From contig OZ024744.1 in assembly GCA_964016885.1 (NCBI GenBank), positions 119,474,001 to 119,538,000 of the forward strand: DNA of 64,000 nucleotides, given 5' to 3'. The DNA comes from Eledone cirrhosa. Lineage: Eukaryota. Positions 36,411 to 64,000 of the stretch are shown in pieces; position 1 is the first letter of the stretch; each line of letters begins with the position of its first letter. The notes beneath the pieces are model-generated. The model saw only the letters and a program-made list of their open reading frames with translations. It had not been told where the DNA came from and did not search any database. Made by a program: the position numbers and the translations under genes.

Positions 36411-38339
36411 TATAATATTGTCTAAGCATTTGTAATGTTATTTATGTATATATTTAAAACATATTTGTTATGTTATTCTTCTGTAAATGTATTTATATGC
36501 TCTGTATCTACTTATTATATTTAAAATGCGGATTATTCCGACTTTTATCTTTTGAACATCAAGCCTTAAAAATCTACAAATAAAAATGTAGAATATATTC
36601 TAATGTTATACAACTCAGGGACTTGGATCATAATATGAAACCTTGTAATAACAATAGATGGATTATATACTAAGCTATTGAGAAGAATTTTTAACATCAG
36701 CTAGAGAGATTATATAAGCAACTAAGAACTATACCAAGGCCTGCCATGGCTATCAGATACCATTTAGTAGAGAATATTACAATTTGCTGAACATTGCCAC
36801 TGAACTGGGGACCAACTGGTTTCTAAGCTTTTATTTTAGTCACCATCAAGAGGTAGGTGGCACAGAGAAGCAGGAATGAAGATCTTTCCAAAAATGCTCA
36901 GAAAGGATACTGGTATATATTCACACACACACATATATGTAGGAGCAAGATATTGTCACCTGTCCTGGCATTACTCACAACAGGACAACTCATCTAACCC
37001 ATGCCAGCTTGGAAAAATGGACGTTAAATGGAAGTGATGATGATATATACTTCAGACAAAAAGTTATTTGTCTCTAATATACTTGGACATCACAATCAAA
37101 AGAATCAGAGAAACATTTATAGCGAAAAATACTTTTGTTAATAATCCACTTTAGCGACATTTGGTTATATACTGTATTGGTAGCAGAAAGTATCCTTAAA
37201 GAATATAGATTGTAAGGCTGCGTGTTCATGTTTCACAGTTGAGGAAAGGATCAGATCAGAAGGCATAATTTGAAACATAATAATTATTTATTTTTGCTTC
37301 ATATTAATACAAGTTGTAGGAGAGTGAATCGTATAATTAAGTTAAACAATAAATGTAATTCTCCTAAGGAAATCTAGAACGTAACTACTTTAATAATACA
37401 TAGTTGTATTGTGAAATATTTCACAACGGAATCACATGAATTAATATTTTGTTATAGTCAAAAGATATGAACAACAAACACGGAGAGAATTTGTGTTGCA
37501 TGAGGAATGTGTGCGAAATATGTTTAGGTAGGAAGAATGTTGCCAAAGTTTTTTTTAAGTGCTACATCTTGCTATCGACTGGGAACACCATTTGTGAGGT
37601 TTGGTGCCAACAAAATGAAAAACCGCAACTGCCGGGTAGAACTGAAAAAAGGTGCGAAACAACTACTGGGCGGAAGTCATCCTTTGTATTCATACGCCAC
37701 CAACCCCAAGGGTTCGCGAGTGACAAAGCATGACCAAATTATTCTGCAGCGATAAAATAGTACCATTGCTTGCTACACATTATAACATACTTTCTTATGC
37801 CAATACATCCACTGAAGGGATACAAGCTTAACAAACTAATATTAGAAAGTTTCACTCATATCATCTCCCTAACTACAGTTTCGGGAATTAAGAAACAATA
37901 TTGATTATGACAGTAAATTAAAACAACCAATATTGGAAGAAATTCCTTCATCAGAGGGATTCTTTGGAAGCAGAAAAAATTTCCTTATTGAACTAGTGTC
38001 ATTTGATTACTAAATGAATATATCAGGACAATATGATATGCTCACAGTGATGCTAGATATAGCACCCATTACAACCATCTATATTAACTCAACAATTACG
38101 GAGTAACAAATGAAGGTAGCTCATCTAGGTGAGACTCCATTAAAAAATAATTGACTGGGGCAGACATGGACTCCCTAAGCTGTAGTGAAGGCAACCCATC
38201 TAGGAGGATAGTGACTCCATTTAAAAATAACTACACATGGCAGATGTGGACTCTGTAAGCCATAGTGAAGGCAACCCATCTAGAGTAGACACTGAATAAA
38301 AACTGAAATAGAGTGGAGAGTTCCAGTAAGACAACCTCT

Positions 38340-41300: not shown

Positions 41301-44300
41301 TGAGCTTGGTAGTGGGGTGACTAGAGTAGCCATGTGGGAGACCTTGACCTAACACTATAGATGTTAGTGCTGAGCTTGGTAGTGGGGTGACTAGAGTAGC
41401 CATGTGGGAGACCCCTTGACCTAACACTATAGATGTTAGTGCTGAGCTTGGTAGTGGGGTGACTAGGGTAGCCATGTGGGAGACTCCCTTGACCTAACAC
41501 TATAGATGTTAGTGCTGAGCTTGGTAGTGGGGTGACTAGGGTAGCCATGTGGGAGACTCCCTTGACCTAACACTATAGATGTTAGTGTTGAGCTTGGTAG
41601 TGAGGTGACTAGAGTGGCCATGTGGGAGACCTTGACCTAACACTATAGATGTTAGTGCTGAGCTTGGTAGTGAGGTCACTAGGGTAGCCATGTGGGAGAC
41701 CCCTTGACCTAACACTAGTGATGTTAGTGCTGAGCTTGGTAGTGGGGTGACTAGGGTAGCCATGTGGGAGACCTTGACCTAACACTATAGATGTTAGTGC
41801 TGAGCTTGGTAGTGGGGTGACTAGGGTAGCCATGTGGGAGAACCCCTTGACCTAACACTATAGATGTTAGTGCTGAGCTTGGTAGTGGGGTGACTAGGGT
41901 AGCCATGTGGGAGACTCCCTTGACCTAACACTCTAGATGTTAGTGTTGAGCTTGGTAGTGGGGTGACTAGGGTAGCCATGTGGGAGAACCCCTTGACCTA
42001 ACACTATAGATGTTAGTGTTGAGCTTGGTAGTGAGGTGACTAGGGTAGCCATGTGGGAGAACCCCTTGACCTAACACTAGTGATGTTAGTGTTGAGCTTG
42101 GTAGTGGGGTGACTAGAGTAGCCATGTGGGAGACTCCCTTGACCTAACACTATAGATGTTAGTGCTGAGCTTGGTAGTGGGGTGACTAGAGTAGCCATGT
42201 GGGAGACTCCCTTGACCTAACACTATAGATGTTAGTGCTGAGCTTGGTAGTGGGGTGACTAGGGTAGCCATGTGGGAGACTCCCTTGACCTAACACTATA
42301 GATGTTAGTGCTGAGCTTGGTAGTGAGGTGACTAGAGTAGCCATGTGGGAGACTCCCTTGACCTAACACTAGTGATGTTAGTGCTGAGCTTGGTAGTGGG
42401 GTGACTAGAGTAGCCATGTGGGAGACTCCCTTGACCTAACACTATAGATGTTAGTGTTGAGCTTGGTAGTGGGGTGACTAGGGTAGCCATGTGGGAGACC
42501 TTGACCTAACACTATAGATGTTAGTGTTGAGCTTGGTAGTGAGGTGACTAGGGTAGCCATGTGGGAGAACCCCTTGACCTAACACTATAGATGTTAGTGC
42601 TGAGCTTGGTAGTGAGGTGACTAGGGTAGCCATGTGGGAGACTCCTTGACCTAACACTATAGATGTTAGTGTTGAGCTTGGTAGTGAGGTGACTAGGGTA
42701 GCCATGTGGGAGACTCCCTTGATCTAACACTATAGATGTTAGTGCTGAGCTTGGTAGTGAGGTGACTAGGGTAGCCATGTGGGAGAACCCCTTGACCTAA
42801 CACTATAGATGTTAGTGTTGAGCTTGGTAGTGGGGTGACTAGGGTAGCCATGTGGGAGAACCCCTTGACCTAACACTATAGATGTTAGTGCTGAGCTTGG
42901 TAGTGGGGTGACTAGAGTAGCCATGTGGGAGAACCCCTTGACCTAACACTATAGATGTTAGTGCTGAGCTTGGTAGTGGGGTGACTAGAGTAGCCATGTG
43001 GGAGAACCCCTTGACCTAACACTAGTGATGTTAGTGCTGAGCTTGGTAGTGGGGTGACTAGGGTAGCCATGTGGGAGACCTTGACCTAACACTATAGATG
43101 TTAGTGTTGAGCTTGGTAGTGGGGTGACTAGGGTAGCCATGTGGGAGAACCCCTTGACCTAACACTATAGATGTTAGTGCTGAGCTTGGTAGTGGGGTGA
43201 CTAGGGTAGCCATGTGGGAGACTCCCTTGACCTAACACTATAGATGTTAGTGTTGAGCTTGGTAGTGAGGTGACTAGGGTAGCCATGTGGGAGACTCCCT
43301 TGACCTAACACTATAGATGTTAGTGCTGAGCTTAGTAGTGAGGTGACTAGGGTAGCCATGTGGGAGACCCCTTGACCTAACACTATAGATGTTTGTGTTG
43401 AGCTTGGTAGTGAGGTGACTAGGGTAGCCATGTGGGAGACTCCCTTGATCTAACACTATAGATGTTAGTGCTGAGCTTAGTAGTGAGGTGACTAGGGTAG
43501 CCATGTGGGAGACCCCTTGACCTAACACTATAGATGTTAGTGCTGAGCTTAGTAGTGAGGTGACTAGGGTAGCCATGTGGGAGACCCCTTGACCTAACAC
43601 TATAGATGTTAGTGCTGAGCTTGGTAGTGGGGTGACTAGGGTAGCCATGTGGGAGACCCCTTGACCTAACACTATAGATGTTAGTGCTGAGCTTGGTAGT
43701 GAGGTGACTAGGGTAGCCATGTGGGAGACCCCTTGACCTAACACTATAGATGTTAGTGCTGAGCTTGGTAGTGAGGTGACTAGAGTAGCCATGTGGGAGA
43801 ACCCCTTGACCTAACACTATAGATGTTAGTGCTGAGCTTGGTAGTGGGGTGACTAGGGTAGCCATGTGGGAGACCCCTTGACCTAACACTATAGATGTTA
43901 GTGTTGAGCTTGGTAGTGGGGTGACTAGGGTAGCCATGTGGGAGACCTTGACCTAACACTATAGATGTTAGTGTTGAGCTTGGTAGTGAGGTGACTAGAG
44001 TAGCCATGTGGGAGACTCCCTTGACCTAACACTATAGATGTTAGTGCTGAGCTTGGTAGTGAGGTGACTAGAGTAGCCATGTGGGAGACTCCCTTGACCT
44101 AACACTATAGATGTTAGTGCTGAGCTTGGTAGTGAGGTGACTAGAGTAGCCATGTGGGAGAACCCCTTGACCTAACACTATAGATGTTAGTGCTGAGCTT
44201 GGTAGTGGGGTGACTAGGGTAGCCATGTGGGAGACCCCTTGACCTAACACTATAGATGTTAGTGTTGAGCTTGGTAGTGAGGTGACTAGGGTAGCCATGT

Positions 44301-47300
44301 GGGAGACCCCTTGACCTAACACTAGTGATGTTAGTGTTGAGCTTGGTAGTGAGGTGACTAGAGAAGCCATGTGGGAGACTCCCTTGACCTAACACTATAG
44401 ATGTTAGTGCTGAGCTTGGTAGTGGGGTGACTAGGGTAGCCATGTGGGAGACTCCCTTGACCTAACACTATAGATGTTAGTGCTGAGCTTGGTAGTGAGG
44501 TGACTAGAGTAGCCATGTGGGAGACTCCCTTGACCTAACACTAGTGATGTTAGTGCTGAGCTTGGTAGTGAGGTGACTAGGGTATCCATGTGGGAGACTC
44601 CCTTGACCTAACACTATAGATGTTAGTGTTGAGCTTGGTAGTGAGGTGACTAGGGTAGCCATGTGGGAGACTCCCTTGACCTAACACTATAGATGTTAGT
44701 GCTGAGCTTGGTAGTGAGGTGACTAGGGTAGCCATGTGGGAGAGCCCTTGACCTAACACTATAGATGTTAGTGTTGAGCTTGGTAGTGAGGTGACTAGAG
44801 TAGCCATGTAGGAGACTCCCTTGACCTAACACTATAGATGTTAGTGCTGTGATTGGTAGTGAGGTGACTAGGGTAGCCATGTGGGAGACCTTGACCTAAC
44901 ACTATAGATGTTAGTGTTGAGCTTGGTAGTGGGGTGACTAGGGTAGCCATGTGGGAGACTCCCTTGACCTAACACTATAGATGTTAGTGCTGAGCTTGGT
45001 AGTGAGGTGACTAGGGTAGCCATGTGGGAGACCCCTTGACCTAACACTAGTGATGTTAGTGTTGAGCTTGGTAGTGAGGTGACTAGGGTAGCCATGTGGG
45101 AGACTCCCTTGATCTAACACTATAGATGTTAGTGTTGAGCTTGGTAGTGGGGTGACTAGAGTAGCCATGTGGGAGACCTTGACCTAACACTATAGATGTT
45201 AGTGCTGAGCTTGGTAGTGAGGTGACTAGGGTAGCCATGTGGGAGACCCCTTGACCTAACACTATAGATGTTAGTGCTGAGCTTGGTAGTGAGGTGACTA
45301 GGGTAGCCATGTGGGAGACCCCTTGACCTAACACTATAGATGTTAGTGCTGAGCTTGGTAGTGAGGTGACTAGGGTAGCCATGTGGGAGACCCCTTGACC
45401 TAACACTATAGATGTTAGTGTTGAGCTTGGTTGTGAGGTGACTAGAGTAGCAATGTGGGAGACTCCCTTGACCTAACACTATAGATGTTAGTGTTGAGCT
45501 TGGTAGTGGGGTGACTAGGGTAGCCATGTGGGAGACCTTGACCTAACACTATAGATGTTAGTGTTGAGCTTGGTAGTGAGGTGACTAGAGTAGCCATGTG
45601 GGAGAACCCCTTGACCTAACACTATAGATGTTAGTGCTGAGCTTGGTAGTGGGGTGACTAGGGTAGCCATGTGGGAGACCCCTTGACCTAACACTATAGA
45701 TGTTAGTGTTGAGCTTGGTAGTGAGGTGACTAGGGTAGCCATGTGGGAGACCCCTTGACCTAACACTATAGATGTTAGTGCTGAGCTTGGTAGTGAGGTG
45801 ACTAGAGTAGCCATGTAGGAGACTCCCTTGACCTAACACTATAGATGTTAGTGCTGTGATTGGTAGTGGGGTGACTAGGGTAGCCATGTGGGAGACCCCT
45901 TGACCTAACACTATAGATGTTAGTGTTGAGCTTGGTAGTGAGGTGACTAGGGTAGCCATGTGGGAGACCCCTTGACCTAACACTATAGATGTTAGTGCTG
46001 AGCTTGGTAGTGAGGTGACTAGAGTAGCCATGTGGGAGACTCCCTTGACCTAACACTATAGATGTTAGTGCTGAGCTTGGTAGTGGGGTGACTAGGGTAG
46101 CCATGTGGGAGACCTTGACCTAACACTATAGATGTTAGTGCTGAGCTTGGTAGTGAGGTGACTAGAGTAGCCATGTGGGAGACCCCTTGACCTAACACTA
46201 TAGATGTTAGTGCTGAGCTTGGTAGTGGGGTGACTAGGGTAGCCATGTGGGAGACTCCCTTGACCTAACACTATAGATGTTAGTGCTGAGCTTGGTAGTG
46301 AGGTGACTAGAGTAGCCATGTGGGAGACTCCCTTGACCTAACACTATAGATGTTAGTGCTGAGCTTGGTAGTGAGGTGACTAGAGTAGCCATGTAGGAGA
46401 CTCCCTTGACCTAACACTATAGATGTTAGTGCTGAGCTTGGTAGTGGGGTGACTAGGGTAGCCATGTAGGAGACTCCCTTGACCTAACACTATAGATGTT
46501 AGTGCTGTGATTGGTAGTGAGGTGACTAGGGTAGCCATGTGGGAGACCTTGACCTAACACTATAGATGTTAGTGTTGAGCTTGGTAGTGGGGTGACTAGG
46601 GTAGCCATGTGGGAGACCTTGACCTAACACTATAGATGTTAGTGTTGAGCTTGGTAGTGAGGTGACTAGAGTAGCCATGTAGGAGACCTTGACCTAACAC
46701 TATAGATGTTAGTGCTGAGCTTGGTAGTGAGGTGACTAGGGTAGCCATGTGGGAGACCCCTTGACCTAACACTAGTGATGTTAGTGCTGAGCTTGGTAGT
46801 GGGGTGACTAGGGTAGCCATGTGGGAGACCTTGACCTAACACTATAGATGTTAGTGCTGAGCTTGGTAGTGGGGTGACTAGGGTAGCCATGTGGGAGAAC
46901 CCCTTGACCTAACACTATAGATGTTAGTGCTGAGCTTGGTAGTGGGGTGACTAGGGTAGCCATGTGGGAGACTCCCTTGACCTAACACTCTAGATGTTAG
47001 TGTTGAGCTTGGTAGTGGGGTGACTAGGGTAGCCATGTGGGAGACTCCCTTGACCTAACACTATAGATGTTAGTGCTGAGCTTGGTAGTGAGGTGACTAG
47101 AGTAGCCATGTGGGAGAACCCCTTGACCTAACACTAGTGATGTTAGTATTGAGCTTGGTAGTGGGGTGACTAGGGTAGCCATGTGGGAGACTCCCTTGAC
47201 CTAACACTAGTGATGTTAGTGTTGAGCTTGGTAGTGAGGTGACTAGGGTAGCCATGTGGGAGACTCCCTTGACCTAACACTATAGATGTTCATGCTTTAG

Positions 47301-50300
47301 CTTGGTAGTGAGGTGACTAGAGTAGCCATGTGGGAGACTCCCTTGACCTAACACTATAGATGTTAGTGCTGAGCTTGGTAGTGAGGTGACTAGGGTAGCC
47401 ATGTGGGAGACTCCCTTGACCTAACACTATAGATGTTAGTGTTGAGCTTGGTAGTGACGTGACTAGGGTAGCCATGTGGGAGACCCCTTGACCTAACACT
47501 ATAGATGTTAGTGCTGAGCTTGGTAGTGAGGTAACTAGGGTAGCCATGTGGGAGACTCCCTTGACCTAACACTATAGATGTTAGTGTTGAGCTTGGTAGT
47601 GAGGTGACTAGGGTAGCCATGTGGGAGACCTCCTTGACCTAACACTATAGATGTTAGTGCTGAGCTTGGTAGTGAGGTAACTAGGGTAGTCATGTGGGAG
47701 ACTCCCTTGACCTAACACTATAGATGTTAGTGTTGAGCTTGGTAGTGAGGTGACTAGGGTAGCCATGTGGGAGACTCCCTTGACCTAACACTATAGATGT
47801 TAGTGCTGAGCTTGGTAGTGAGGTGACTAGGGTAGCCATGTGGGAGAACCCCTTGACCTAACACTATAGATGTTAGTGTTGAGCTTGGTAGTGGGGTGAC
47901 TAGAGTAGCCATATGGGAGACCTTGACCTAACACTATAGATGTTAGTGTTGAGCTTGGTAGTGGGGTGACTAGGGTAGCCATGTGGGAGACTCCTTGACC
48001 TAACACTATAGATGTTAGTGTTGAGCTTGGTAGTGGGGTGACTAGGGTAGCCATATGGGAGACCCCTTGACCTAACACTATAGATGTTAGTGTTGAGCTT
48101 GGTAGTGGGGTGACTAGGGTAGCCATGTAGGAGACCCCTTGACCTAACACTATAGATGTTAGTGTTGAGCTTGGTAGTGGGGTGACTAGAGTAGCCATGT
48201 GGGAGACCCCTTGACCTAACACTATAGATGTTAGTGTTGAGCTTGGTAGTGAGGTGACTAGAGTAGCCATGTGGGAGACCCCCTTGACCTAACACTATAG
48301 ATGTTAGTGCTGAGCTTGGTAGTGAGGTGACTAGGGTAGCCATGTGGGAGACTCCCTTGACCTAACACTATAGATGTTAGTGCTGAGCTTGGTAGTGGGG
48401 TGACTAGAGTAGCCATGTGGGAGACTCCCTTGACCTAACACTATAGATGTTAGTGCTGAGCTTGGTAGTGAGGTGACTAGGGTAGCCATGTGGGAGACTC
48501 CCTTGACCTAACACTATAGATGTTAGTGCTGAGCTTGGTAGTGAGGTGACTAGAGTAGCCATGTGGGAGACCCCTTGACCTAACACTATAGATGTTAGTG
48601 CTGAGCTTAGTAGTGAGGTGACTAGGGTAGCCATGTGGGAGACTCCCTTGATCTAACACTATAGATGTTAGTGCTGAGCTTAGTAGTGAGGTGACTAGGG
48701 TAGCCATGTAGGAGACCATGACCTAACACTATAGATGTTAGTGTTGAGCTTGGTAGTGGGGTGACTAGGGTAGCCATGTGGGAGACTCCCTTGACCTAAC
48801 ACTATAGATGTTAGTGCTGAGCTTGGTAGTGAGGTGACTAGAGTGGCCATGTGGGAGACCCCTTGACCTAACACTATAGATGTTAGTGTTGAGCTTGGTA
48901 GTGAGGTGACTAGGGTAGCCATGTGGGAGACTCCCTTGATCTAACACTATAGATGTTAGTGCTGAGCTTAGTAGTGAGGTGACTAGGGTAGCCATGTGGG
49001 AGACCCCTTGACCTAACACTATAGATGTTAGTGCTGAGCTTAGTAGTGAGGTGACTAGGGTAGCCATGTGGGAGACCCCTTGACCTAACACTATAGATGT
49101 TAGTGCTGAGCTTGGTAGTGGGGTGACTAGGGTAGCCATGTGGGAGACCCCTTGACCTAACACTATAGATGTTAGTGTTGAGCTTGGTAGTGGGGTGACT
49201 AGAGTAGCCATGTGGGAGACTCCCTTGACCTAACACTATAGATGTTAGTGTTGAGCTTGGTAGTGAGGTGACTAGGGTAGCCATGTGGGAGACCTTGACC
49301 TAACACTATAGATGTTAGTGTTGAGCTTGGTAGTGGGGTGACTAGGGTAGCCATGTGGGAGACTCCCTTGACCTAACACTATAGATGTTAGTGTTGAGCT
49401 TGGTAGTGAGGTGACTAGGGTAGCCATGTGGGAGACCCCTTGACCTAACACTATAGATGTTAGTGTTGAGCTTGGTAGTGGGGTGACTAGGGTAGCCATG
49501 TGGGAGACCTTGACCTAACACTATAGATGTTAGTGTTGAGCTTGGTAGTGGGGTGACTAGGGTAGCCATGTGGGAGACCTTGACCTAACACTATAGATGT
49601 TAGTGCTGTGATTGGTAGTGAGGTGACTAGAGTAGCCATGTGGGAGAACCCCTTGACCTAACACTATAGATGTTAGTGCTGAGCTTGGTAGTGGGGTGAC
49701 TAGGGTAGCCATGTGGGAGACCCCTTGACCTAACACTATAGATGTTAGTGCTGAGCTTGGTAGTGAGGTGACTAGAGTAGCCATGTGGGAGAACCCCTTG
49801 ACCTAACACTATAGATGTTAGTGCTGAGCTTGGTAGTGAGGTGACTAGGGTAGCCATGTAGGAGAACCCCTTGACCTAACACTATAGATGTTAGTGCTGA
49901 GCTTGGTAGTGGGGTGACTAGAGTAGCCATGTGGGAGAACCCATTGACCTAACACTATAGATGTTAGTGCTGAGCTTGGTAGTGAGGTGACTAGGGTAGC
50001 CATGTGGGAGACTCCCTTGACCTAACACTATAGATGTTAGTGCTGAGCTTGGTAGTGGGGTGACTAGAGTAGCCATGTGGGAGAACCCCTTGACCTAACA
50101 CTATAGATGTTAGTGCTGAGCTTGGTAGTGGGGTGACTAGAGTAGCCATGTGGGAGAACCCCTTGACCTAACACTAGTGATGTTAGTGCTGAGCTTGGTA
50201 GTGGGGTGACTAGGGTAGCCATGTGGGAGACCCCTTGACCTAACACTATAGATGTTAGTGCTGAGCTTGGTAGTGGGGTGACTAGGGTAGCCATGTGGGA

Positions 50301-53300
50301 GACTCCCTTGACCTAACACTCTAGATGTTAGTGTTGAGCTTGGTAGTGAGGTGACTAGGGTAGCCATGTGGGAGACCCCTTGACCTAACACTATAGATGT
50401 TAGTGCTGAGCTTGGTAGTGAGGTGACTAGGGTAGCCATGTGGGAGACCCCTTGACCTAACACTATAGATGTTAGTGTTGAGCTTGGTAGTGAGGTGACT
50501 AGGGTAGCCATGTGGGAGAACCCCTTGACCTAACACTAGTGATGTTAGTGTTGAGCTTGGTAGTGGGGTGACTAGGGTAGCCATGTGGGAGAACCCCTTG
50601 ACCTAACACTATAGATGTTAGTGTTGAGCTTGGTAGTGAGGTGACTAGGGTAGCCATGTGGGAGACTCCCTTGACCTAACACTATAGATGTTAGTGCTGA
50701 GCTTGGTAGTGGGGTGACTATGGTAGCCATGTGGGAGACTCCCTTGACCTAACACTATAGATGTTAGTGCTGAGCTTGGTAGTGAGGTGACTAGAGTGGC
50801 CATGTGGGAGAACACCTTGACCTAACACTATAGATGTTAGTGCTGAGCTTGGTAGTGAGGTGACTAGGGTAGCCATGTGGGAGACCTTGACCTAACACTA
50901 TAGATGTTAGTGCTGAGCTTGGTAGTGAGGTGACTAGAGTAGCCATGTGGGAGACTCCCTTGACCTAACACTCTAGATGTTAGTGCTGAGCTTGGTAGTG
51001 AGGTGACTAGAGTGGCCATGTGGGAGACTCCCTTGACCTAACACTCTAGATGTTAGTGCTGAGCTTGGTAGTGAGGTGACTAGAGTAGCCATGTGGGAGA
51101 CTCCCTTGACCTAACACTCTAGATGTTAGTGCTGAGCTTGGTAGTGAGGTGACTAGAGTAGCCATGTGGGAGACCTTGACCTAACACTATAGATGTTAGT
51201 GCTGAGCTTGGTAGTGAGGTGACTAGAGTGGCCATGTGGGAGACCTTGACCTAACACTATAGATGTTAGTGTTGAGCTTGGTAGTGAGGTGACTAGAGTA
51301 GCCATGTGGGAGACCCCCTTGACCTAACACTATAGATGTTAGTGCTGAGCTTGGTAGTGGGGTGACTAGGGTAGCCATGTGGGAGACTCCCTTGACCTAA
51401 CACTATAGATGTTAGTGTTGAGCTTGGTAGTGAGGTGACTAGAGTAGCCATGTGGGAGACCCCTTGACCTAACACTATAGATGTTAGTGCTGAGCTTGGT
51501 AGTGGGGTGACTAGAGTGGCCATGTGGGAGACCCCTTGACCTAACACTATAGATGTTAGTGCTGAGCTTGGTAGTGGGGTGACTAGGGTAGCCATGTGGG
51601 AGACTCCCTTGACCTAACACTATAGATGTTAGTGCTGAGCTTGGTAGTGAGGTGACTAGAGTGGCCATGTGGGAGACCCCTTGACCTAACACTATAGATG
51701 TTAGTGTTGAGCTTGGTAGTGAGGTGACTAGGGTAGCCATGTGGGAGACTCCCTTGACCTAACACTATAGATGTTAGTGCTGAGCTTGGTAGTGAGGTGA
51801 CTAGAGTAGCCATGTGGGAGAACCCCTTGACCTAACACTATAGATGTTAGTGCTGAGCTTGGTAGTGGGGTGACTAGGGTAGCCATGTGGGAGACCTTGA
51901 CCTAACACTATAGATGTTAGTGTTGAGCTTGGTAGTGAGGTGACTAGAGTGGCCATGTGGGAGAACCCCTTGACCTAACACTATAGATGTTAGTGCTGTG
52001 ATTGGTAGTGAGGTGACTAGGGTAGCCATGTGGGAGACTCCCTTGACCTAACACTATAGATGTTAGTGTTGAGCTTGGTAGTGGGGTGACTAGAGTAGCC
52101 ATGTGGGAGACCCCTTGACCTAACACTATAGATGTTAGTGCTGAGCTTGGTAGTGGGGTGACTAGGGTAGCCATGTGGGAGACCCCTTGACCTAACACTA
52201 TAGATGTTAGTGTTGAGCTTGGTAGTGGGGTGACTAGAGTAGCCATGTGGGAGACCTTGACCTAACACTATAGATGTTAGTGCTGAGCTTGGTAGTGAGG
52301 TGACTAGGGTAGCCATGTGGGAGACCTTGACCTAACACTATAGATGTTAGTGTTGAGCTTGGTAGTGGGGTGACTAGGGTAGCCATGTGGGAGACTCCCT
52401 TGACCTAACACTATAGATGTTAGTGTTGAGCTTGGTAGTGAGGTGACTAGAGTAGCCATGTGGGAGACTCCTTGACCTAACACTATAGATGTTAGTGCTG
52501 AGCTTGGTAGTGAGGTGACTAGGGTAGCCATGTGGGAGACTCCTTGACCTAACACTATAGATGTTAGTGCTGAGCTTGGTAGTGAGGTGACTAGGGTAGC
52601 CATGTGGGAGACTCCTTGACCTAACACTATAGATGTTAGTGCTGAGCTTGGTAGTGAGGTGACTAGGGTAGCCATGTGGGAGACTCCTTGACCTAACACT
52701 ATAGATGTTAGTGCTGAGCTTGGTAGTGAGGTGACTAGGGTAGCCATGTGGGAGACCCCTTGACCTAACACTATAGATGTTAGTGCTGAGCTTGGTAGTG
52801 GGGTGACTAGGGTAGCCATGTGGGAGACTCCCTTGACCTAACACTAGTGATGTTAGTGCTGAGCTTGGTAGTGGGGTGACTAGGGTAGCCATGTGGGAGA
52901 CCCCTTGACCTAACACTATAGATGTTAGTGCTGAGCTTGGTAGTGAGGTGACTAGGGTAGCCATGTGGGAGACCTTGACCTAACACTATAGATGTTAGTG
53001 TTGAGCTTGGTAGTGGGGTGACTAGGGTAGCCATGTGGGAGACTCCCTTGACCTAACACTATAGATGTTAGTGTTGAGCTTGGTAGTGAGGTGACTAGGG
53101 TAGCCATGTGGGAGACCATGACCTAACACTATAGATGTTAGTGCTGAGCTTAGTAGTGAGGTGACTAGGGTAGCCATGTAGGAGACCATGACCTAACACT
53201 ATAGATGTTAGTGTTGAGCTTGGTAGTGGGGTGACTAGGGTAGCCATGTGGGAGACTCCCTTGACCTAACACTATAGATGTTAGTGCTGAGCTTGGTAGT

Positions 53301-56300
53301 GAGGTGACTAGAGTGGCCATGTGGGAGACCCCTTGACCTAACACTATAGATGTTAGTGTTGAGCTTGGTAGTGAGGTGACTAGGGTAGCCATGTGGGAGA
53401 CTCCCTTGATCTAACACTATAGATGTTAGTGCTGAGCTTAGTAGTGAGGTGACTAGGGTAGCCATGTGGGAGACCCCTTGACCTAACACTATAGATGTTA
53501 GTGCTGAGCTTAGTAGTGAGGTGACTAGGGTAGCCATGTGGGAGACCCCTTGACCTAACACTATAGATGTTAGTGCTGAGCTTGGTAGTGGGGTGACTAG
53601 GGTAGCCATGTGGGAGACCCCTTGACCTAACACTATAGATGTTAGTGTTGAGCTTGGTAGTGGGGTGACTAGAGTAGCCATGTGGGAGACTCCCTTGACC
53701 TAACACTATAGATGTTAGTGTTGAGCTTGGTAGTGAGGTGACTAGGGTAGCCATGTGGGAGACCTTGACCTTACACTATAGATGTTAGTGTTGAGCTTGG
53801 TAGTGGGGTGACTAGGGTAGCCATGTGGGAGACTCCCTTGACCTAACACTATAGATGTTAGTGTTGAGCTTGGTAGTGAGGTGACTAGGGTAGCCATGTG
53901 GGAGACCCCTTGACCTAACACTATAGATGTTAGTGTTGAGCTTGGTAGTGGGGTGACTAGGGTAGCCATGTGGGAGACCTTGACCTAACACTATAGATGT
54001 TAGTGTTGAGCTTGGTAGTGGGGTGACTAGGGTAGCCATGTGGGAGACCTTGACCTAACACTATAGATGTTAGTGCTGTGATTGGTAGTGAGGTGACTAG
54101 AGTAGCCATGTGGGAGAACCCCTTGACCTAACACTATAGATGTTAGTGCTGAGCTTGGTAGTGGGGTGACTAGGGTAGCCATGTGGGAGACCCCTTGACC
54201 TAACACTATAGATGTTAGTGCTGAGCTTGGTAGTGAGGTGACTAGAGTAGCCATGTGGGAGAACCCCTTGACCTAACACTATAGATGTTAGTGCTGAGCT
54301 TGGTAGTGAGGTGACTAGGGTAGCCATGTAGGAGAACCCCTTGACCTAACACTATAGATGTTAGTGCTGAGCTTGGTAGTGGGGTGACTAGAGTAGCCAT
54401 GTGGGAGAACCCCTTGACCTAACACTATAGATGTTAGTGCTGAGCTTGGTAGTGAGGTGACTAGGGTAGCCATGTGGGAGACTCCCTTGACCTAACACTA
54501 TAGATGTTAGTGCTGAGCTTGGTAGTGGGGTGACTAGAGTAGCCATGTGGGAGAACCCCTTGACCTAACACTATAGATGTTAGTGCTGAGCTTGGTAGTG
54601 GGGTGACTAGAGTAGCCATGTGGGAGAACCCCTTGACCTAACACTAGTGATGTTAGTGCTGAGCTTGGTAGTGGGGTGACTAGGGTAGCCATGTGGGAGA
54701 CCCCTTGACCTAACACTATAGATGTTAGTGCTGAGCTTGGTAGTGGGGTGACTAGGGTAGCCATGTGGGAGACTCCCTTGACCTAACACTCTAGATGTTA
54801 GTGTTGAGCTTGGTAGTGAGGTGACTAGGGTAGCCATGTGGGAGACCCCTTGACCTAACACTATAGATGTTAGTGCTGAGCTTGGTAGTGAGGTGACTAG
54901 GGTAGCCATGTGGGAGACCCCTTGACCTAACACTATAGATGTTAGTGTTGAGCTTGGTAGTGAGGTGACTAGGGTAGCCATGTGGGAGAACCCCTTGACC
55001 TAACACTAGTGATGTTAGTGTTGAGCTTGGTAGTGGGGTGACTAGGGTAGCCATGTGGGAGAACCCCTTGACCTAACACTATAGATGTTAGTGTTGAGCT
55101 TGGTAGTGAGGTGACTAGGGTAGCCATGTGGGAGACTCCCTTGACCTAACACTATAGATGTTAGTGCTGAGCTTGGTAGTGGGGTGACTATGGTAGCCAT
55201 GTGGGAGACTCCCTTGACCTAACACTATAGATGTTAGTGCTGAGCTTGGTAGTGAGGTGACTAGAGTGGCCATGTGGGAGAACACCTTGACCTAACACTA
55301 TAGATGTTAGTGCTGAGCTTGGTAGTGAGGTGACTAGGGTAGCCATGTGGGAGACCTTGACCTAACACTATAGATGTTAGTGCTGAGCTTGGTAGTGAGG
55401 TGACTAGAGTAGCCATGTGGGAGACTCCCTTGACCTAACACTCTAGATGTTAGTGCTGAGCTTGGTAGTGAGGTGACTAGAGTGGCCATGTGGGAGACTC
55501 CCTTGACCTAACACTCTAGATGTTAGTGCTGAGCTTGGTAGTGAGGTGACTAGAGTAGCCATGTGGGAGACTCCCTTGACCTAACACTCTAGATGTTAGT
55601 GCTGAGCTTGGTAGTGAGGTGACTAGAGTAGCCATGTGGGAGACCTTGACCTAACACTATAGATGTTAGTGCTGAGCTTGGTAGTGAGGTGACTAGAGTG
55701 GCCATGTGGGAGACCTTGACCTAACACTATAGATGTTAGTGTTGAGCTTGGTAGTGAGGTGACTAGAGTAGCCATGTGGGAGACCCCCTTGACCTAACAC
55801 TATAGATGTTAGTGCTGAGCTTGGTAGTGGGGTGACTAGGGTAGCCATGTGGGAGACTCCCTTGACCTAACACTATAGATGTTAGTGTTGAGCTTGGTAG
55901 TGAGGTGACTAGAGTAGCCATGTGGGAGACCCCTTGACCTAACACTATAGATGTTAGTGCTGAGCTTGGTAGTGGGGTGACTAGAGTGGCCATGTGGGAG
56001 ACCCCTTGACCTAACACTATAGATGTTAGTGCTGAGCTTGGTAGTGGGGTGACTAGGGTAGCCATGTGGGAGACTCCCTTGACCTAACACTATAGATGTT
56101 AGTGCTGAGCTTGGTAGTGAGGTGACTAGAGTGGCCATGTGGGAGACCCCTTGACCTAACACTATAGATGTTAGTGTTGAGCTTGGTAGTGAGGTGACTA
56201 GGGTAGCCATGTGGGAGACTCCCTTGACCTAACACTATAGATGTTAGTGCTGAGCTTGGTAGTGAGGTGACTAGAGTAGCCATGTGGGAGAACCCCTTGA

Positions 56301-57742
56301 CCTAACACTATAGATGTTAGTGCTGAGCTTGGTAGTGGGGTGACTAGGGTAGCCATGTGGGAGACCTTGACCTAACACTATAGATGTTAGTGTTGAGCTT
56401 GGTAGTGAGGTGACTAGAGTGGCCATGTGGGAGAACCCCTTGACCTAACACTATAGATGTTAGTGCTGTGATTGGTAGTGAGGTGACTAGGGTAGCCATG
56501 TGGGAGACTCCCTTGACCTAACACTATAGATGTTAGTGTTGAGCTTGGTAGTGGGGTGACTAGAGTAGCCATGTGGGAGACCCCTTGACCTAACACTATA
56601 GATGTTAGTGCTGAGCTTGGTAGTGGGGTGACTAGGGTAGCCATGTGGGAGACCCCTTGACCTAACACTATAGATGTTAGTGTTGAGCTTGGTAGTGGGG
56701 TGACTAGAGTAGCCATGTGGGAGACCTTGACCTAACACTATAGATGTTAGTGCTGAGCTTGGTAGTGAGGTGACTAGGGTAGCCATGTGGGAGACCTTGA
56801 CCTAACACTATAGATGTTAGTGTTGAGCTTGGTAGTGGGGTGACTAGGGTAGCCATGTGGGAGACTCCCTTGACCTAACACTATAGATGTTAGTGTTGAG
56901 CTTGGTAGTGAGGTGACTAGAGTAGCCATGTGGGAGACTCCTTGACCTAACACTATAGATGTTAGTGCTGAGCTTGGTAGTGAGGTGACTAGGGTAGCCA
57001 TGTGGGAGACTCCTTGACCTAACACTATAGATGTTAGTGCTGAGCTTGGTAGTGAGGTGACTAGGGTAGCCATGTGGGAGACTCCTTGACCTAACACTAT
57101 AGATGTTAGTGCTGAGCTTGGTAGTGAGGTGACTAGGGTAGCCATGTGGGAGACTCCTTGACCTAACACTATAGATGTTAGTGCTGAGCTTGGTAGTGAG
57201 GTGACTAGGGTAGCCATGTGGGAGACCCCTTGACCTAACACTATAGATGTTAGTGCTGAGCTTGGTAGTGGGGTGACTAGGGTAGCCATGTGGGAGACTC
57301 CCTTGACCTAACACTAGTGATGTTAGTGCTGAGCTTGGTAGTGGGGTGACTAGGGTAGCCATGTGGGAGACCCCTTGACCTAACACTATAGATGTTAGTG
57401 CTGAGCTTGGTAGTGAGGTGACTAGGGTAGCCATGTGGGAGACTCCCTTGACCTAACACTAGTGATGTTAGTGCTGAGCTTGGTAGTGGGGTGACTAGGG
57501 TAGCCATGTGGGAGACCCCTTGACCTAACACTATAGATGTTAGTGCTGAGCTTGGTAGTGGGGTGACTAGGGTAGCCATGTGGGAGAACCCCTTGACCAT
57601 CACACAAACTTTTTCCTATTCAGGAAACTAAATACTGTCTAGTTGCTCATCTAAGGGCTGCCACACTCAATGTTGGCACCTGAAAAGTAGATCAGGTGAA
57701 ATTGTGGAACTGTTAGAAGTGAATGTATGCAGTGTAAAAGAT
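38340..57742 (+). mobile_element. 5' portion of an RTE-like LINE (family-B-like head, UTR, start of APE endonuclease) expanded by the giant satellite
   Basis: Head 38340-38430 (GTAGGGCATCCAGACTGTAAAAC); after the array, 57650-57742 reads LRAATLNVGT/KSRSGEIVELLEVNVC, the RTE APE N-terminus. Confidence 0.55.
38479..57598. repeat. Giant satellite array, 70/72/73-bp monomers, about 265 copies (19.1 kb)
   Basis: Unit TAACACTATAGATGTTAGTG(C/T)TGAGCTTGGTAGTG(A/G)GGTGACTAG(A/G)GTAGCCATGTGGGAGAC(TC)CCTTGACC, uninterrupted. Confidence 0.98.
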
Positions 57743-58760
57743 CAGGTACACTATAACATAGAGGGACTTAGGTCACCTGTATACAGGTACACTATAACAT
57801 ACAGTGACCTAGGTCACCTGTATAGAGGGACCTAGGTCACCTGTATACAGGTACACTATAACATAGAGGGACCTAGGTCACCTGTATACAGGTATACTAT
57901 AACATAGAGACTGCAAAGGACCCTTACCTTCTGATTAAATTTCTCACTGAACTCATTCTTGACCCTCACATTGCTGACTGCACCTCGGCCTACCTGGTGT
58001 AGGACCATCCAGGAGGGGACTGAGACTTTTGAATCCAACCACTGACGTGCTGCAAGGAAGGCCCAGCCACAACCACCACAAACACTCCCCTGGGTCTCAT
58101 AACTCTTCAGGGGTTGACTCAACCTCCACACCACCACTGGGGGATGGAAAAGGAATAAGTATAGAGGATGATGATCCCAGTGCTCAGACAACATGGTTTG
58201 TACAGTACTTACAAATAGTTTGTCTACCCCTAACTTACTCAGTGGAAGCACATAGATGTTATTGTCACCATTCTATTCCCTACAGCTATTCTAAGCTATT
58301 CTGTCACTCTAACTACTTCCTCTCTACTTATTCCTTTTCCATCCCCCAGTGGTGGTGTGGAGGTTGAGTCAACCCCTGAAGAGTTATGAGACCCAGGGGA
58401 GTGTTTGTGGTGGTTGTGGCTGGGCCTTCCTTGCAGCATGTCAGTGGTTGGATTCAAAAGTCTCAGTCCCCTCCTGGATGGTCCTACACCAGGTAGGCCG
58501 AGGTGCAGTCAGCAATGTGAGGGTCAAGAATGAGTTCAGTGAGAAATTTACAGAAGGTAAGGGTCCTTTGCAGTCTCTGTTATAGTATACCTGTATACAG
58601 GTGACCTAGGTCCCTCTATGTTATAGTGTACCTGTATACAGGTGACCTAGGTCCCTCTATGTTATAGTGTACCTGTATACAGGTGACCTAGGTCCCTCTA
58701 TGTTATAGTTTACCTGTATACAGGTGACCTAGGTCCCTCTATGTTATAGTATACCTGTAT
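57743..58760. repeat. Long inverted repeat (arms 57743-58168 and 58317-~58760, spacer about 148 bp)
   Basis: ORFs 57856-58251(-) and 58349-58585(+) encode almost the same peptide; the arms are near-exact reverse complements. Confidence 0.93.
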
Positions 58761-59480
58761 ACAGGTGACCTAGGTCACTGTATGTTATAGTGTACCTGTA
58801 TACAGATGACCTAGGTCACTGTATGTTATAGTGTACCTGTATACAGATGACCTAGGTCTCTGTATGTTATAGTGTACCTGTATACAGATCACCTAGATCA
58901 CTGTATGTTATAGTGTACCTGTATACAGATGACCTAGGTCACTGTATGTTATAGTGTACCTGTATACAGATGACCTAGGTCACTGTATGTTATAGTGTAC
59001 CTGTATACAGATGACCTAGGTCCCTCTATGTTATAGTATACCTGTATACAGATGACCTAGGTCACTGTATGTTATAGTGTACCTGTATACAGATGACCTA
59101 GGTCCCTCTATGTTATAGTATACCTGTATACAGATGACCTAGGTCACTGTATGTTATAGTGTACCTGTATACAGGTGACCTAGGTCCCTCTATGTTATAG
59201 TGTACCTGTATACAGATGACCTAGGTCACTGTATGTTATAGTGTACCTGTATACAGGTGACCTAGGTCACTGTATGTTATAGTGTACCTGTATACAGGTG
59301 ACCTAGGTCCCTCTATGTTATAGTGTACCTGTATACAGGTGACCTAGGTCCCTCTATGTTATAGTGTACCTGTATACAGATGACCTAGGTCATTGTATGT
59401 TATAGTGTACCTGTATACAGGTGACCTAGGTCCCTCTATGTTATAGTGTACCTGTATACAGGTGACCTAGATTACTGTAT
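58579..59480. repeat. 41-bp palindrome-rich minisatellite, about 22 copies
   Basis: Unit GTTATAGTGTACCTGTATACAG(G/A)TGACCTAGGTC(CCTC/ACTG)TAT; period checked 58620 to 58661. Confidence 0.95.
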
Positions 59481-60775
59481 AATAATAATAATAATGAAAT
59501 ATTGTGTACAGTGCTCAGGTGCACTACAACTCATCAAAAAGTGTATGTATAGTACATAGGGTAATGTACAAACGTCAGGAAAATGAACAGTGCATGAGTC
59601 ATGATACACACATGTGTGCATGTGTATGGAAGGGGTACATTTTGGCGTATTTTGGGAAGCATGAGTGTTTTAAAAGATGCAGTCTCTCGGCAGCTAACAA
59701 CTAACGCAGGCAGTTTGTTCCATGCTACAGCAACTCTGAGTGTGAAAAAATGCTTACGAAAGTCATGGGAGCTGTGCTGTTTTCTGATTTTGTAGGCATG
59801 TCCACGTGTGTTAGACACATGGAGATCAAAAAGGCGCTCAGGGTTGTTGTTGGCGAGATGGTTAATAACTTTGTGGGTGTTTACCAAGTCCATTGTCAGA
59901 CGTCGGAGCTTCAATGAATCCATCCTCAGGGAAGCAAGGCATTCAGAGTATGGTACGTGTCTGATGGAGGGTATGCGCTTGTTTGCACGTCTCTGAACAG
60001 TTTCCAGGAGGTCAATGTTCTGAGCAAGATAGGGGTTCCAGACTGATGATGCGAATTCCAAGTGTGGTCGTACCATAGCTGTATACAGTTTTAAATAGAT
60101 GGCTGGAGAGCGGCTAACAAAGGTCTTGCTGAATGATGCCAAGACACTCTCGGCTTCCTTGACACTCTTAGAGACATGCTTTGTCCAACGCAAATCGCTG
60201 CTGACAGTAATGCCCAGGTCACGTTCACAAGAGGACTTCTTGATATCAGTGTTGTGGAGGGAGTATGTGGACGCTGGATTTTTCCTCCCAAAATTCATGG
60301 TGGTACACTTGTCCACAGCCAGCTTCAGTTGCCAGTCTGTGATCCATTGCTGCATTGTGTCCAGGTCTGATTGTAGGAAAGAGTTGTAGATTTCAGGATC
60401 AGTCCTTTTGATTTCAAGGTACAGCTTGATGTCATCTGCATATTTCAGTACTGTGGCATTCTGTAAGTTGGCATCTATGTCATTAATATATGCCACAAAC
60501 AAAAGGGGACCAAGAACAGATCCCTGTGGTACACCAGATGACATCTCATATGGTGAAGAATGCTGTCCTGGAACCGTGACTACCTCTTTTTGGCTGAGAA
60601 TGAAGGATTTCAACCAGTCGAAAAGATCATCCCTCACACCCATTGCAGAGAGTTTTACCATAAGTCTTTTGTGTGGCACAGAATTAAAAGCCTTAGCAAA
60701 GTCAAGGTAAACAACATCCACCCATGAGCCACTGTCAGTGATCCGGGTAATGTCTTCAAGGAACTCGATAAGCTG
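59481..60775 (-). mobile_element. 5'-truncated CR1-clade LINE with an uninterrupted RT-to-C-terminus frame
   Basis: DVVYLDFAKAFNSVPH, SGVPQGSVLGPLLF, KYADDIKLY, ERDLGI, VRPHLEFASSVWNP, NTRGH, FFTLRV..WNKLP; (ATT)n tail at 59481-59496. Confidence 0.93.
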
Positions 60776-61003
60776 AGTACCTGTATACAAATGACCTAGG
60801 TCACTCTATGTTATAGTGCACCTGTATACAGGTGACCTAGGTCACTATATTATAGTGTACCTGTATACAGATGACCTAGGTCACTCTATGTTATAGTGTA
60901 CCTGTATACAGGTGACCTAGGTCACTATATTATAGTGTACCTGTATACAGATGACCTAGGTCACTCTATGTTATAGTGTACCTGTATACAGATGACCTAG
61001 GTG
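60776..61003. repeat. Continuation of the 41-bp array (about 5.5 units, some 39 bp)
   Basis: Same unit and orientation as 58579-59480. Confidence 0.93.
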
Positions 61004-61563
61004 GCATTGCTAGATGTCTAGAAGAGTTAGAAAGAACATGGAGGCAAAATTTGGAGTGCAATATCATCTATGTGAAGTTTTGTGTTGTTATGAAAGAGGA
61101 TGATAAACACGAGAAATACAATAATTTGGGTTAGATATATAGAACTTTAGTCCATTTCAGTAAAACAGGAAAAACTTTGAATCATAAAAAGTATATAGAC
61201 AGTAGCACTCGCAAATACATGCAGTGTTTGAAAAATCATTTGTGTTTTGTTGGGGAATCTTTGTTTACATGAAAAGAAAGATGACTGATGGTTGAAGAGC
61301 CAATGGAAGAATTGTTGGTTCCTTGTCAATGGGGCCGGAATTTATTTTTTGCTAAGTGATACATTTACTAGTAATTCTTCTCTTCTGAGTTACCACAGTC
61401 AACTGAAACAATGGAGGAACTTATCTTGTCTTCACCTCAAGCTGACCAGCCACGCCAGGCAAAATGACACCAATTCAGATGCAGAGATTTTGCAGCCAGA
61501 TGGCATTTGGAGGTCAGTGTGTCTGCAAAGAGATTTTGCAACACATGAAGAAAAATTAGCTTT

Positions 61564-63346
61564 TGTAGGGGTCACAACAAAAAGTACCCAGTCCACACTG
61601 TAAAGTGGTCATGGAGGTGTAACAACAAAAAGTACCCAGTACACATTGTAGAGTGGTCGTGTATATGTCACAACAAAAGGTACCCAGTCTACACGGTATA
61701 GTGGTCATGTAGGTGTCACAACAAAAAGTAGCCAGTTCACACTGTAAAGTAGTCATGTAGGTGTCATGACAAAAAGTACCCAGTACATACTGTAAAGTGG
61801 TCATGTAGGTGTGACAACAAAAATTACCAAGTACACACTGTAAAGTGGTCATGTAGGTGTCACAACAAAAAGTACACAGTACACACTGTAAAGTGTTCGA
61901 ATAGGTGTCACAACAAAAAGTACCCAGTACACACTGTAGACTGGTCATGTAGTTGTCATGACAAAAAGTACCCAGTTCAAACTGTAAAATGGTCATGTAG
62001 GTGTCACAACAAAAAGTACCCAGTACACACTGTAAAGTGGTCATGTAGGTGTCACAACAAAACGTACCCAGTACACACTGTAAAGTGGTCATGTAGGTGT
62101 CACAACAAAAAGTACCTAGCACACACTGTAGACTGGTCATGTAGTTGTCATGACAAAAAGTACCCAGTTCAAACTGTAAAATGGTCATGTAGGTGTCACA
62201 ACAAAAAGTACCCAGTACACACTGTAAAGTGGTCATGTAGGTGTCACAACAAAACGTACCCAGTACACACTGTAAAGTGGACATGTAGGTGTCATGACAA
62301 AAAGTACCCAGTACATACTGTAAAGTGGTCATGTAGGTGTGACAACAAAAATTACCAAGTACACACTGTAAAGTGGTCATGTAGGTGTCACAACAAAAAG
62401 TACACAGTACACACTGTAAAGTGTTCGAATAGGTGTCACAACAAAAAGTACCCAGTACACACTGTAGACTGGTCATGTAGTTGTCATGACAAAAAGTACC
62501 CAGTTCAAACTGTAAAATGGTCATGTAGGTGTCACAACAAAAAGTACCCAGTACACACTGTAAAGTGGTCATGTAGGTGTCACAACAAAACGTACCCAGT
62601 ACACACTGTAAAGTGGTCATGTAGGTGTCACAACAAAAAGTACCTAGCACACACTGTAGACTGGTCATGTAGTTGTCATGACAAAAAGTACCCAGTTCAA
62701 ACTGTAAAATGGTCATGTAGGTGTCACAACAAAAAGTACCCAGTACACACTGTAAAGTGGTCATGTAGGTGTCACAACAAAACGTACCCAGTACACACTG
62801 TAAAGTGGACATGTAGGTGTCATGACAAAAAGTAGCCAGTACACACTGTAAAGTGGTCATGTAGGTGTCACAACAAAATGTACCTAGTACACACTGTAAA
62901 GTGGTCATGTAGGTGTCACAACAAAATGTACTCAGTACACACTCTAAGGTGGTCATGTAGGTGTCATGACAAAAAGTACCCAGTACACACTGTAAAGTGG
63001 TCATGTAGGTGTCACAACAAGTACTCAGTACACACTGTAAAGTGGTCATGTAGGTGTCACAACAAAATGTACCTAGTACACACTCTAAGGTGGTCATGTA
63101 GGTGTCATAACTAAAAGTACCCAGTACACACTCCAAAGTGGTCATGTAGGTGTCATGACAAAAAGTACCCAATACACACTGCAAATGTGGTTGGCATTAA
63201 GAAGTGCATCCAGCTGTAGAAATCAAGCCCAAACCTGTTCTGTATGAGCAAGACATGGTCACCTGACCTGACTTGTTTCACAATGGGGCAACTCATCAAA
63301 GACATGCTAGTGTGGTTAAATGGACATTAAACAGTGATGATGATGA
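61564..63346 (+). mobile_element. SINE family B with about 34 tandem 48-bp units (61564-63185)
   Basis: The array runs into GTGGTTGGCATTAAGAAGTGCATCCAGCTGTAGAAA and a GATGATGATGA tail. Confidence 0.88.
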
Positions 63347-64000
63347 AAACAGGACCCTGACACCATTGTTAAAGGGGTCCTGTTCATTATGTAGAAAAAG
63401 GGGCAATACGGTGCAGCAAGGGTAAGTTATGTGTTGTGAGAGACTGACAGAAAATGTAAACTTTGTAAATGGAGAATACACAGGTGTAGTTTCTATTACA
63501 TGGGTAATCTAATGATAAGTGGATGGGATTTACTGAAAGTAGACAGAATAAGAATGGGTGAGGGTGGAGGGAGATATTATTTTTGTTGGTAGTAAAAGGT
63601 TTCTATGTAGTCGCCTTCTTTGTCGAAAAACAAAGAAGGTCAAGAATTGATGAATTCCTAGTTTCACTTTAGAGATCATCAGGGCTTTGCGTTTCTAGAT
63701 ACACCACTCTTGGGTCCGAAATAACAGCTGGGGTGAAATAGATGGTATGGAACAAACGGGGTGGAATGGAATAAGTAGGTCTGGGTTGGAAAATCAGTAA
63801 TTTTTTCTAGGTTGTCTCTATTGATATTTTAAAAAAACAGAATTAGTCGTTTAGTTTACATATTGAGACCCAACCCATCCTATTTATTTTATAACATATG
63901 GTATTTCTAATAATGTACTTTTTTCGTCATGTATAATGTTTTTTAATGTCTAAATGAAAATTGTCACAGGAATGCTACCACTTAAAATAACATTTATCAG

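What the first reader, a model, noticed from the sequence alone, without database searches (positions are those of the whole stretch)
58501..61060. A palindromic satellite built from the catalytic YADD region of a reverse transcriptase gene
Seen: upstream of the 41-bp array the + strand reads GAVSNVRVKNEFSEKF..KVRV. The last unit runs directly into LYTDDLGGIARCLEELERTWRQNLE (60983-61060). The RTE copies in this window read GAVSKVR..SEEFS..SPLLFIIVL..ELLYADDLTFIAESMLELEKKFQTWKKGLE. The unit therefore looks like CTCTATGTTATAGT (L-F/Y-V-I-V) fused to CTGTATACAGATGACCTA (LY[A>T]DDL), amplified about 30 times. It carries two overlapping 14-bp perfect palindromes (ACCTGTATACAGGT, GTGACCTAGGTCAC). 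Inference: a deletion and mutations created palindromes in the RT active-site codons, which seeded hairpin-driven amplification.
Basis: partly seen in the sequence, partly recalled or inferred. Interest (0 to 1): 0.75.

Follow-up and report, generated by a model that had tools for sequence, protein, structure and literature searches.

The report
Minisatellite grown inside a dead LINE
About 30 copies of a 41-base repeat, found only at this spot, sit inside a decayed retrotransposon and half of each unit is its reverse-transcriptase active-site codons; the array likely grew by ordinary local duplication, since the same element copy and other copies in this genome carry arrays without palindromes.

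Summary
The observation mostly holds. The array is real (about 31 units, split by a LINE insertion) and locus-specific: 27 of 27 exact hits of a unit core lie here. It sits in register in a decayed RTE-like LINE: upstream and downstream pieces map in order to an RT profile. Only the second half of the unit (LYADDL codons) is traceable; the claimed L-F-I-I-V half scores no better than shuffles. The palindromes are real and unusual as a pair, but both 14-bp forms occur together in 4 units only; the unit joined to the RT continuation has 10- and 8-bp cores. Hairpin-driven amplification is not supported. The same LINE copy also seeded a 265-copy 73-bp array from its 5' end. A second YADD-seeded array on another contig has no palindrome over 4 bp. 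The longest control arrays are palindrome-poor. The scan noted LINE-derived arrays in this genome before, one at the RT motif. Verdict: an ordinary transposon-derived minisatellite, a new member of a known kind.

The parts
38111..38477 (+). 5' region of an old RTE-like LINE copy
   Evidence: 38111-38550 matches L180 at 70.6% over 449 columns, E 2e-65; sequence
38478..57598 (+). 73-bp array, 265 copies; unit is a piece of the same LINE's 5' region
   Evidence: unit aligns in register with 7 of 7 old-subfamily copies shown; 80.8% to L180, E 2e-14
57599..57741 (+). Start of the LINE ORF (endonuclease N-terminus), with small deletions
   Evidence: 77.6% to L181, E 1e-25
57743..58168 (-). Inverted duplicate arm: about 4 units of the 41-bp repeat (one 23-bp deletion unit), RT left flank, second-element fragment
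   Evidence: 99% over 233 nt plus two 2-bp indels; contigs of one public sample hold the arm at about twice single-copy depth and the inner junction
58191..58244 (-). RT piece that lies just before the left flank in the element (profile positions 43-96), now inverted
   Evidence: nhmmer E 3e-4; 0 of 300 shuffles
58253..58331 (-). Endonuclease-region piece of the same LINE family, inverted; overlaps the inner junction
   Evidence: 79.5% to L181, E 5e-14
58318..58499 (-). 3' end of a second, unrelated RTE-like LINE nested in the RT
   Evidence: 68-86% to four dispersed loci; their ORF is only 21-35% identical to the host LINE
58500..58568 (+). RT left flank (GAVS..VRV..EFSE.F), profile positions 100-170
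   Evidence: E 1e-8; genome search
58574..59480 (+). 41-bp array, main block, 22 units, 11 variants among the 21 full units; second half of unit = LYADDL codons, first half unassigned
59481..60776 (-). 5'-truncated high-copy LINE (CR1-like; label recalled from motifs) with an ATT-repeat tail, inserted into the array; 9 array bases missing at the site
   Evidence: RVT_1 E 1e-25; junctions; depth about 10^4 times single copy and family continues past 60776
60777..61002 (+). 41/39-bp array, right block, 5.6 units, forming an 80-bp dimer
60981..61058 (+). Last unit's second half running into the RT continuation, profile positions 257-343, 9-nt deletion
   Evidence: E 0.014 in window; genome hits are RT YADD regions; single-copy contig 60973-61250
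61564..63191 (+). 48-bp array, 34 copies; unit matches the 3' UTR of the young RTE-like family
   Evidence: 79% over 67 nt, E 2e-11
63333..63604 (+). Further post-RT pieces of the LINE, within a larger tandem duplication (6 near-identical copies in 30 kb)
   Evidence: E 4e-4 and 2e-7

Best explanation
This is a single-locus minisatellite lying in register inside a decayed RTE-like LINE, with half of its unit made of the reverse-transcriptase LYADDL codons, and it likely arose by an ordinary short tandem duplication followed by local slippage or unequal exchange. Shown: collinearity, locus specificity, unit variants, the LINE insertion, the inverted duplication. Inferred order: (1) an old LINE copy decays by point changes and many small deletions and takes up a fragment of a second LINE; (2) about 39 bp ending at the DDL codons is duplicated with a 2-bp joint; (3) the array expands and variants spread between neighbours; (4) a CR1-like LINE inserts into the array; (5) a two-step template switch inverts and duplicates the left part (order of 4 and 5 unknown). 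The palindromes are likely by-products: one substitution in LYA gives the 10-bp core, and the joint and a later A>G change lengthen both. They may have shaped some variants and one junction but are not needed for growth. No function is expected.
For: Collinear profile hits in order 43-96, 100-170, 257-343, with 5' region, endonuclease start and post-RT pieces on either side. Locus-specific: 27 of 27 hits of a 21-mer here; 28 of 34 hits of a 19-mer here, 6 in one unrelated 23-bp array; contig depth about 15-25 times single copy, in line with the assembled copy number. The same copy seeded a 265-copy array whose longest perfect palindrome is 6 bp. An independent 32-bp x 16.2 array at the YADD codons of another copy has a longest palindrome of 4 bp. 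Simple two-copy duplications occur both at YADD (1 locus) and at a control RT motif (2 loci). The five longest arrays by copy number among 18 families in 474 kb have palindromes of 2-6 bp. The YTDD change also occurs in ordinary copies L059, L062, L109. Distinct unit mutations do not favour palindromes: 3 of 13 versus 12 of 123 possible, p 0.13. In human, 23% of mini/satellites derive from TEs and expand locally (PMC3389668, passages).
Against: The palindrome pair is unusual: two of that length arise in 0.55% or fewer of shuffles for 13 of 14 variants, and four-unit folds give z -1.4 to -4.4 for those 13; 12 bp is the longest palindrome among the 18 families. Three of the four widespread variants add self-complementarity (post hoc, n=4). 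The 39-bp variant perfects a quasi-palindrome and another change extends the first palindrome to 16 bp. The outer inversion junction falls within a palindrome arm. Control units fold slightly better than shuffles on average (mean z -0.77, p 0.03), though two of them are internally dimeric. About 25 nt, including the unit's first half, has no proven source. The only expanded arrays found are at YADD (2, versus 0 at the control motif), a sample too small to read.
Confidence: 0.75

Rival explanations
1. Hairpin- or fold-back-driven origin: palindromes created in the YADD codons stalled synthesis, caused the first duplication by template switching, and drove expansion.
For: Palindrome pair rarer than shuffles; the 2-bp joint CA extends an 8-bp palindrome to 12 bp; palindrome-extending variants and an inversion junction in a palindrome. 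Fold-back palindrome elongation is a described process (PMC5677150, abstract and opening paragraphs).
Against: Unit joined to the RT continuation has only 10- and 8-bp cores; local hairpins not more stable than shuffles in 13 of 14 variants; mutation spectrum not biased; palindrome-free arrays at the same codons and in the same copy grew as long or longer; 12 units carry a CC joint that shortens the palindrome.
Confidence: 0.15
2. The RT YADD region is a recurrent seed for arrays for a sequence reason other than palindromes, such as short direct repeats around the LLY codons.
Against: Tandem duplications: 2 loci at YADD, 2 at the control motif; the family is very abundant (66,459 first-look candidates), so some arrays at any position are expected.
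Confidence: 0.07
3. The unit is foreign DNA (or the structure is an assembly artefact) that happens to lie in an RT remnant.
For: First half unassignable; a 23-bp array on another contig shares 19-20 nt; read support comes from one sample that may be the assembled one.
Against: Second half matches LYADDL in register and runs into the RT continuation; the shared 19-mer is within chance for a 3-Gb genome once all 41 offsets are allowed (my estimate); contigs support arm, inner junction and right junction.
Confidence: 0.03

Closest known systems
TE-derived minisatellites formed in place (human Alu/L1/LTR; Ahmed and Liang 2012, PMC3389668, passages seen)
   Same: Tandem array whose unit is part of the TE copy in which it lies, expanded by local duplication; initiation mechanism mostly unexplained.
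   Different: Here the unit comes from RT active-site codons of an RTE-like LINE, is partly of untraced origin and is palindrome-rich; 'palindrom' has 0 occurrences in that paper.
Satellites related to LINE ORF2: chicken HinfI (CR1), Phodopus PROsat and seal Pvc 20 (L1), as reviewed in PMC9659126 (section 2.2 and passages seen)
   Same: Repeat unit contains LINE coding sequence; the review concludes that any part of a TE can seed repeats.
   Different: Those are listed as satellites containing or resembling LINE pieces; this is one 1.3-kb locus with a 41-bp unit still in register with its source.
Quasi-palindrome correction and palindrome elongation by template switching (yeast rad27; PMC5677150, abstract and opening paragraphs seen)
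   Same: Some unit variants lengthen or perfect palindromes; an inverted duplication has a junction in a palindrome.
   Different: No statistical bias among the 13 distinct mutations here; that work concerns mutations, not array growth.

Membership tests
TE-derived minisatellite | Head-to-tail units of 10-100 bp | tested here: met
   Period 41, 94% matches
TE-derived minisatellite | Unit homologous to a TE segment | tested here: met
   Second half only: 1 of 300 shuffles; first half 219 of 300
TE-derived minisatellite | Array in register with TE sequence on both sides | tested here: met
   Profile positions 100-170 before, 257-343 through and after
Satellite DNA family (dispersed or very long arrays) | Long arrays or many loci | tested here: not met
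   About 31 units at one locus
RTE-clade LINE (source family) | Single ORF with endonuclease and RT (as described for octopus RTE in PMC9115989, passages) | tested here: met
   1040-aa ORF in two full copies; Exo_endo_phos and RVT_1, plus a PHD hit
RTE-clade LINE (source family) | RT groups with RTE references in a tree | not tested
   No reference set was fetched; the clade label rests on structure and recall
CR1-clade LINE (inserted element) | RT phylogeny; short-repeat 3' tail | tested here: inconclusive
   RVT_1 and ATT-repeat tail seen; clade label recalled from motifs, no tree
Hairpin-driven repeat | Unit forms a more stable local hairpin than shuffles | tested here: not met
   z -1.7 to +0.8 for 13 of 14 variants, -2.3 for one
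Hairpin-driven repeat | Array is self-complementary across units | tested here: met
   Four-unit folds z -1.4 to -4.4 in 13 of 14 variants
Hairpin-driven repeat | Expansion depends on the palindromes | not testable with these tools
   Indirect controls argue against need

The most novel reading that the evidence does not exclude
The array records fold-back template switching in action: a joint templated from the opposite strand started it, variants that lengthen the palindromes spread preferentially, and the palindromic array then served as the switch point for the inverted duplication, so one dead LINE shows a self-reinforcing path from RT codons to a structure-prone array.
Probability: 0.15. 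Interest if true: 0.45.

Novelty: new member of a known kind. Interest (0 to 1): 0.2.

Why it matters
Little on its own: TE-derived tandem repeats are well known and common in this genome. Its use is as a tidy worked example. One LINE copy carries two arrays in register (73 bp from the 5' region, 41 bp from the RT), two nested insertions and an inverted duplication, so the order of events can be read. With the palindrome-free YADD array on another contig it gives a natural pair for asking whether palindromes matter for minisatellite birth, which PMC3389668 (passages) calls largely unexplained.

Tried and rejected
Pfam finds nothing in the 37-aa and 28-aa locus peptides; they are too short, so profiles from genome copies were used. 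The first alignment test used copies selected with the flanks themselves and is biased; one search repeats it with 11 copies selected otherwise. In some searches the collapsed locus was cut at slightly wrong places, so only one search is quoted. L052 shows a deletion with the same spacing between FIIV and LYADD, but it was found with the locus peptide as query, so it is not counted as support. An internal-dimer origin for the unit was considered; the halves share only about 6 bases (by eye). The 23-bp array L013 lies in a non-RT context and is treated as chance. blastn did not detect the 41-mer's LINE origin in the control, so the LINE-derived share there (3 clear and 2 weak hits among 18 families) is a lower bound; the 18 families are what was left of 671 TRF rows after filters on period, copy number, identity and simplicity. 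RAD-seq runs X4-X6 do not cover the arrays, so there is no second individual. No RNA holder listed. The YADD pattern is exact and misses diverged copies, including this locus. Literature: searches listed no paper on an array from RT active-site codons, but none was a dedicated search for that and only listings were seen for most; supplements were not read.

Full report
Setting. The window lies in a 3.0-Gb genome, contig C28, 119474001-119538000. It is rich in tandem arrays (45 TRF rows) and in pieces of one LINE family whose intact members have a single 1040-aa ORF with endonuclease, RT and PHD hits. That structure matches the description of octopus RTE elements (PMC9115989, passages); no tree was built, so 'RTE' is a structural and recalled label. 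The family is very abundant (66,459 first-look candidates, 150 scored).

The array. TRF gives 58574-59470 (21.9 copies) and 60777-61002 (5.6 copies). Between them is a 5'-truncated minus-strand LINE, 59481-60776, with an RVT_1 hit, an ATT-repeat tail and 9 array bases missing at the site; it belongs to a very high-copy family. About 4 more units lie in an inverted copy at 57743-57909. An exact 21-mer of the unit has 27 hits in the genome, all here. A 19-mer has 34 hits, 28 here and 6 in a 23-bp array on C21 with no RT around it. Contig depth over the unit is about 15-25 times single copy, so no large hidden array is indicated; these runs are one sample and may be the assembled one.

Is it RT? 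Yes, in part. With 11 RT copies chosen by the element's 5' end or by the window's young copy, the left flank scores above all 300 shuffles, and the second half of the unit, alone or with the right flank, is reached by 1 of 300. The right flank alone (81 of 300) and the first half of the unit (219 of 300) are not significant. Profile hits fall in order: 43-96 (58191-58244, minus), 100-170 (58500-58568), 257-343 (60981-61058). Genome searches with each flank peptide return RT regions in the loci examined, though at weak E-values. So 87 model positions before LYADD are replaced by about 25 nt of uncertain source. Small deletions occur all along this copy, so the deletion is not special.

38111-38477 is the 5' region of an old subfamily, the 73-bp unit (265 copies) is its next segment, and 57599-57741 is the endonuclease start. 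Post-RT pieces follow at 63333-63604, inside a larger tandem duplication with 6 near-identical copies. The 48-bp array matches the 3' UTR of the young subfamily. 58318-58499 is the 3' end of a second LINE, antisense, set between two adjacent RT pieces. The inverted repeat (57743-58168 against 58318 onward; 99% over 233 nt, two 2-bp indels) reads as two template switches: from the endonuclease start into the array on the opposite strand, back through the RT and an endonuclease piece, then forward again at a short CT-rich match near 58318 (inferred). The array already had at least 4 units then. Contigs hold the arm at about double depth and the inner junction.

Palindromes. They exist, but as cores: the 10-bp core occurs 31 times and the 8-bp core 29 times; the 14-bp forms 16 and 5 times, together in 4 units. 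The unit joined to the RT continuation has 10 and 8 bp. One G>A change in the LYA codons yields the 10-bp core, and YTDD occurs in ordinary copies too. For a role: the pair is rarer than 0.55% of shuffles in 13 of 14 variants and multi-unit folds are stable; three of four widespread variants add complementarity; the outer inversion junction lies in a palindrome arm. Against: local hairpins are unremarkable; 3 of 13 distinct mutations raise palindrome content versus 12 of 123 possible, p 0.13, and folding energy shows no shift, p 0.51.

Controls. In 474 kb of C28 (window, 210 kb adjacent, 20 spaced 10-kb stretches), 18 array families passed the filters; 3 have palindromes of 10 bp or more, and the five with most copies (99-334) have 2-6 bp; mean folding z is -0.77, p 0.03. 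Three of the 40 stretches fetched for this test are array from end to end. A search for tandem YADD motifs found 2 loci: a two-copy 48-bp duplication and a 32-bp x 16.2 array in another decayed copy on C12, longest palindrome 4 bp. A control RT motif also gave 2 loci, both two-copy. So YADD-seeded arrays are not unique and do not need palindromes.

Comparison. TE-derived tandem repeats are established: 23% of human mini/satellites, expanded locally (PMC3389668, passages); any TE part, LINE ORF2 included, can seed them (PMC9659126, passages and section 2.2). Palindrome elongation by template switching is known (PMC5677150, abstract and opening paragraphs). PMC13282606 (passages) added only that RTE and CR1 families are active in octopus. 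Earlier notes of this scan, read after my tests and unchecked by me, report many LINE-derived arrays in this genome, one at the RT motif; none covers this place.

Verdict. Observation partly confirmed; RT origin supported for half the unit; hairpin-driven growth about 15%. New member of a known kind, interest 0.2.

Noticed in passing
window 38478-57598: The 19-kb 73-bp array is an in-place expansion of the 5' region of the same old LINE copy; a 6-bp-stem quasi-palindrome at the unit start is already present in dispersed copies.
   Followed up: yes
window 57743-58757: Recent inverted duplication with a 149-nt spacer, joining endonuclease and RT pieces; likely two template switches.
   Followed up: partly
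L234:1499-2018 (G000 C12 near 36.98 Mb): Independent 32-bp x 16.2 minisatellite starting at the LYADDL codons of another decayed copy, without palindromes.
   Followed up: partly
window about 61500-64000 and C28 up to 119.566 Mb: Larger tandem duplication (spacing 3.4-7.7 kb) carrying the 48-bp array and LINE 3' pieces; 6 copies at 99-100% identity.
   Followed up: partly
L053, L056-L058, L060, L061, L063, L064, L066-L070: Many LINE copies are 5'-truncated at the YADD tyrosine codon and abut TA microsatellites; the query favours such hits, so frequency is unknown.
   Followed up: no
window 38343-38427: The old subfamily's 5' region contains a stretch similar to the young subfamily's 3' UTR and the 48-bp unit.
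   Followed up: no
window 31742-32309: 112-bp x 5.1 array that also matches the LINE 3' UTR (84.6% over 117 nt).
   Followed up: partly
L013:1357-1890 (G000 C21): 23-bp array sharing 19-20 nt with the 41-bp unit, in a non-RT context; a short exon-like piece nearby is repeated in tandem between CA runs.
   Followed up: partly
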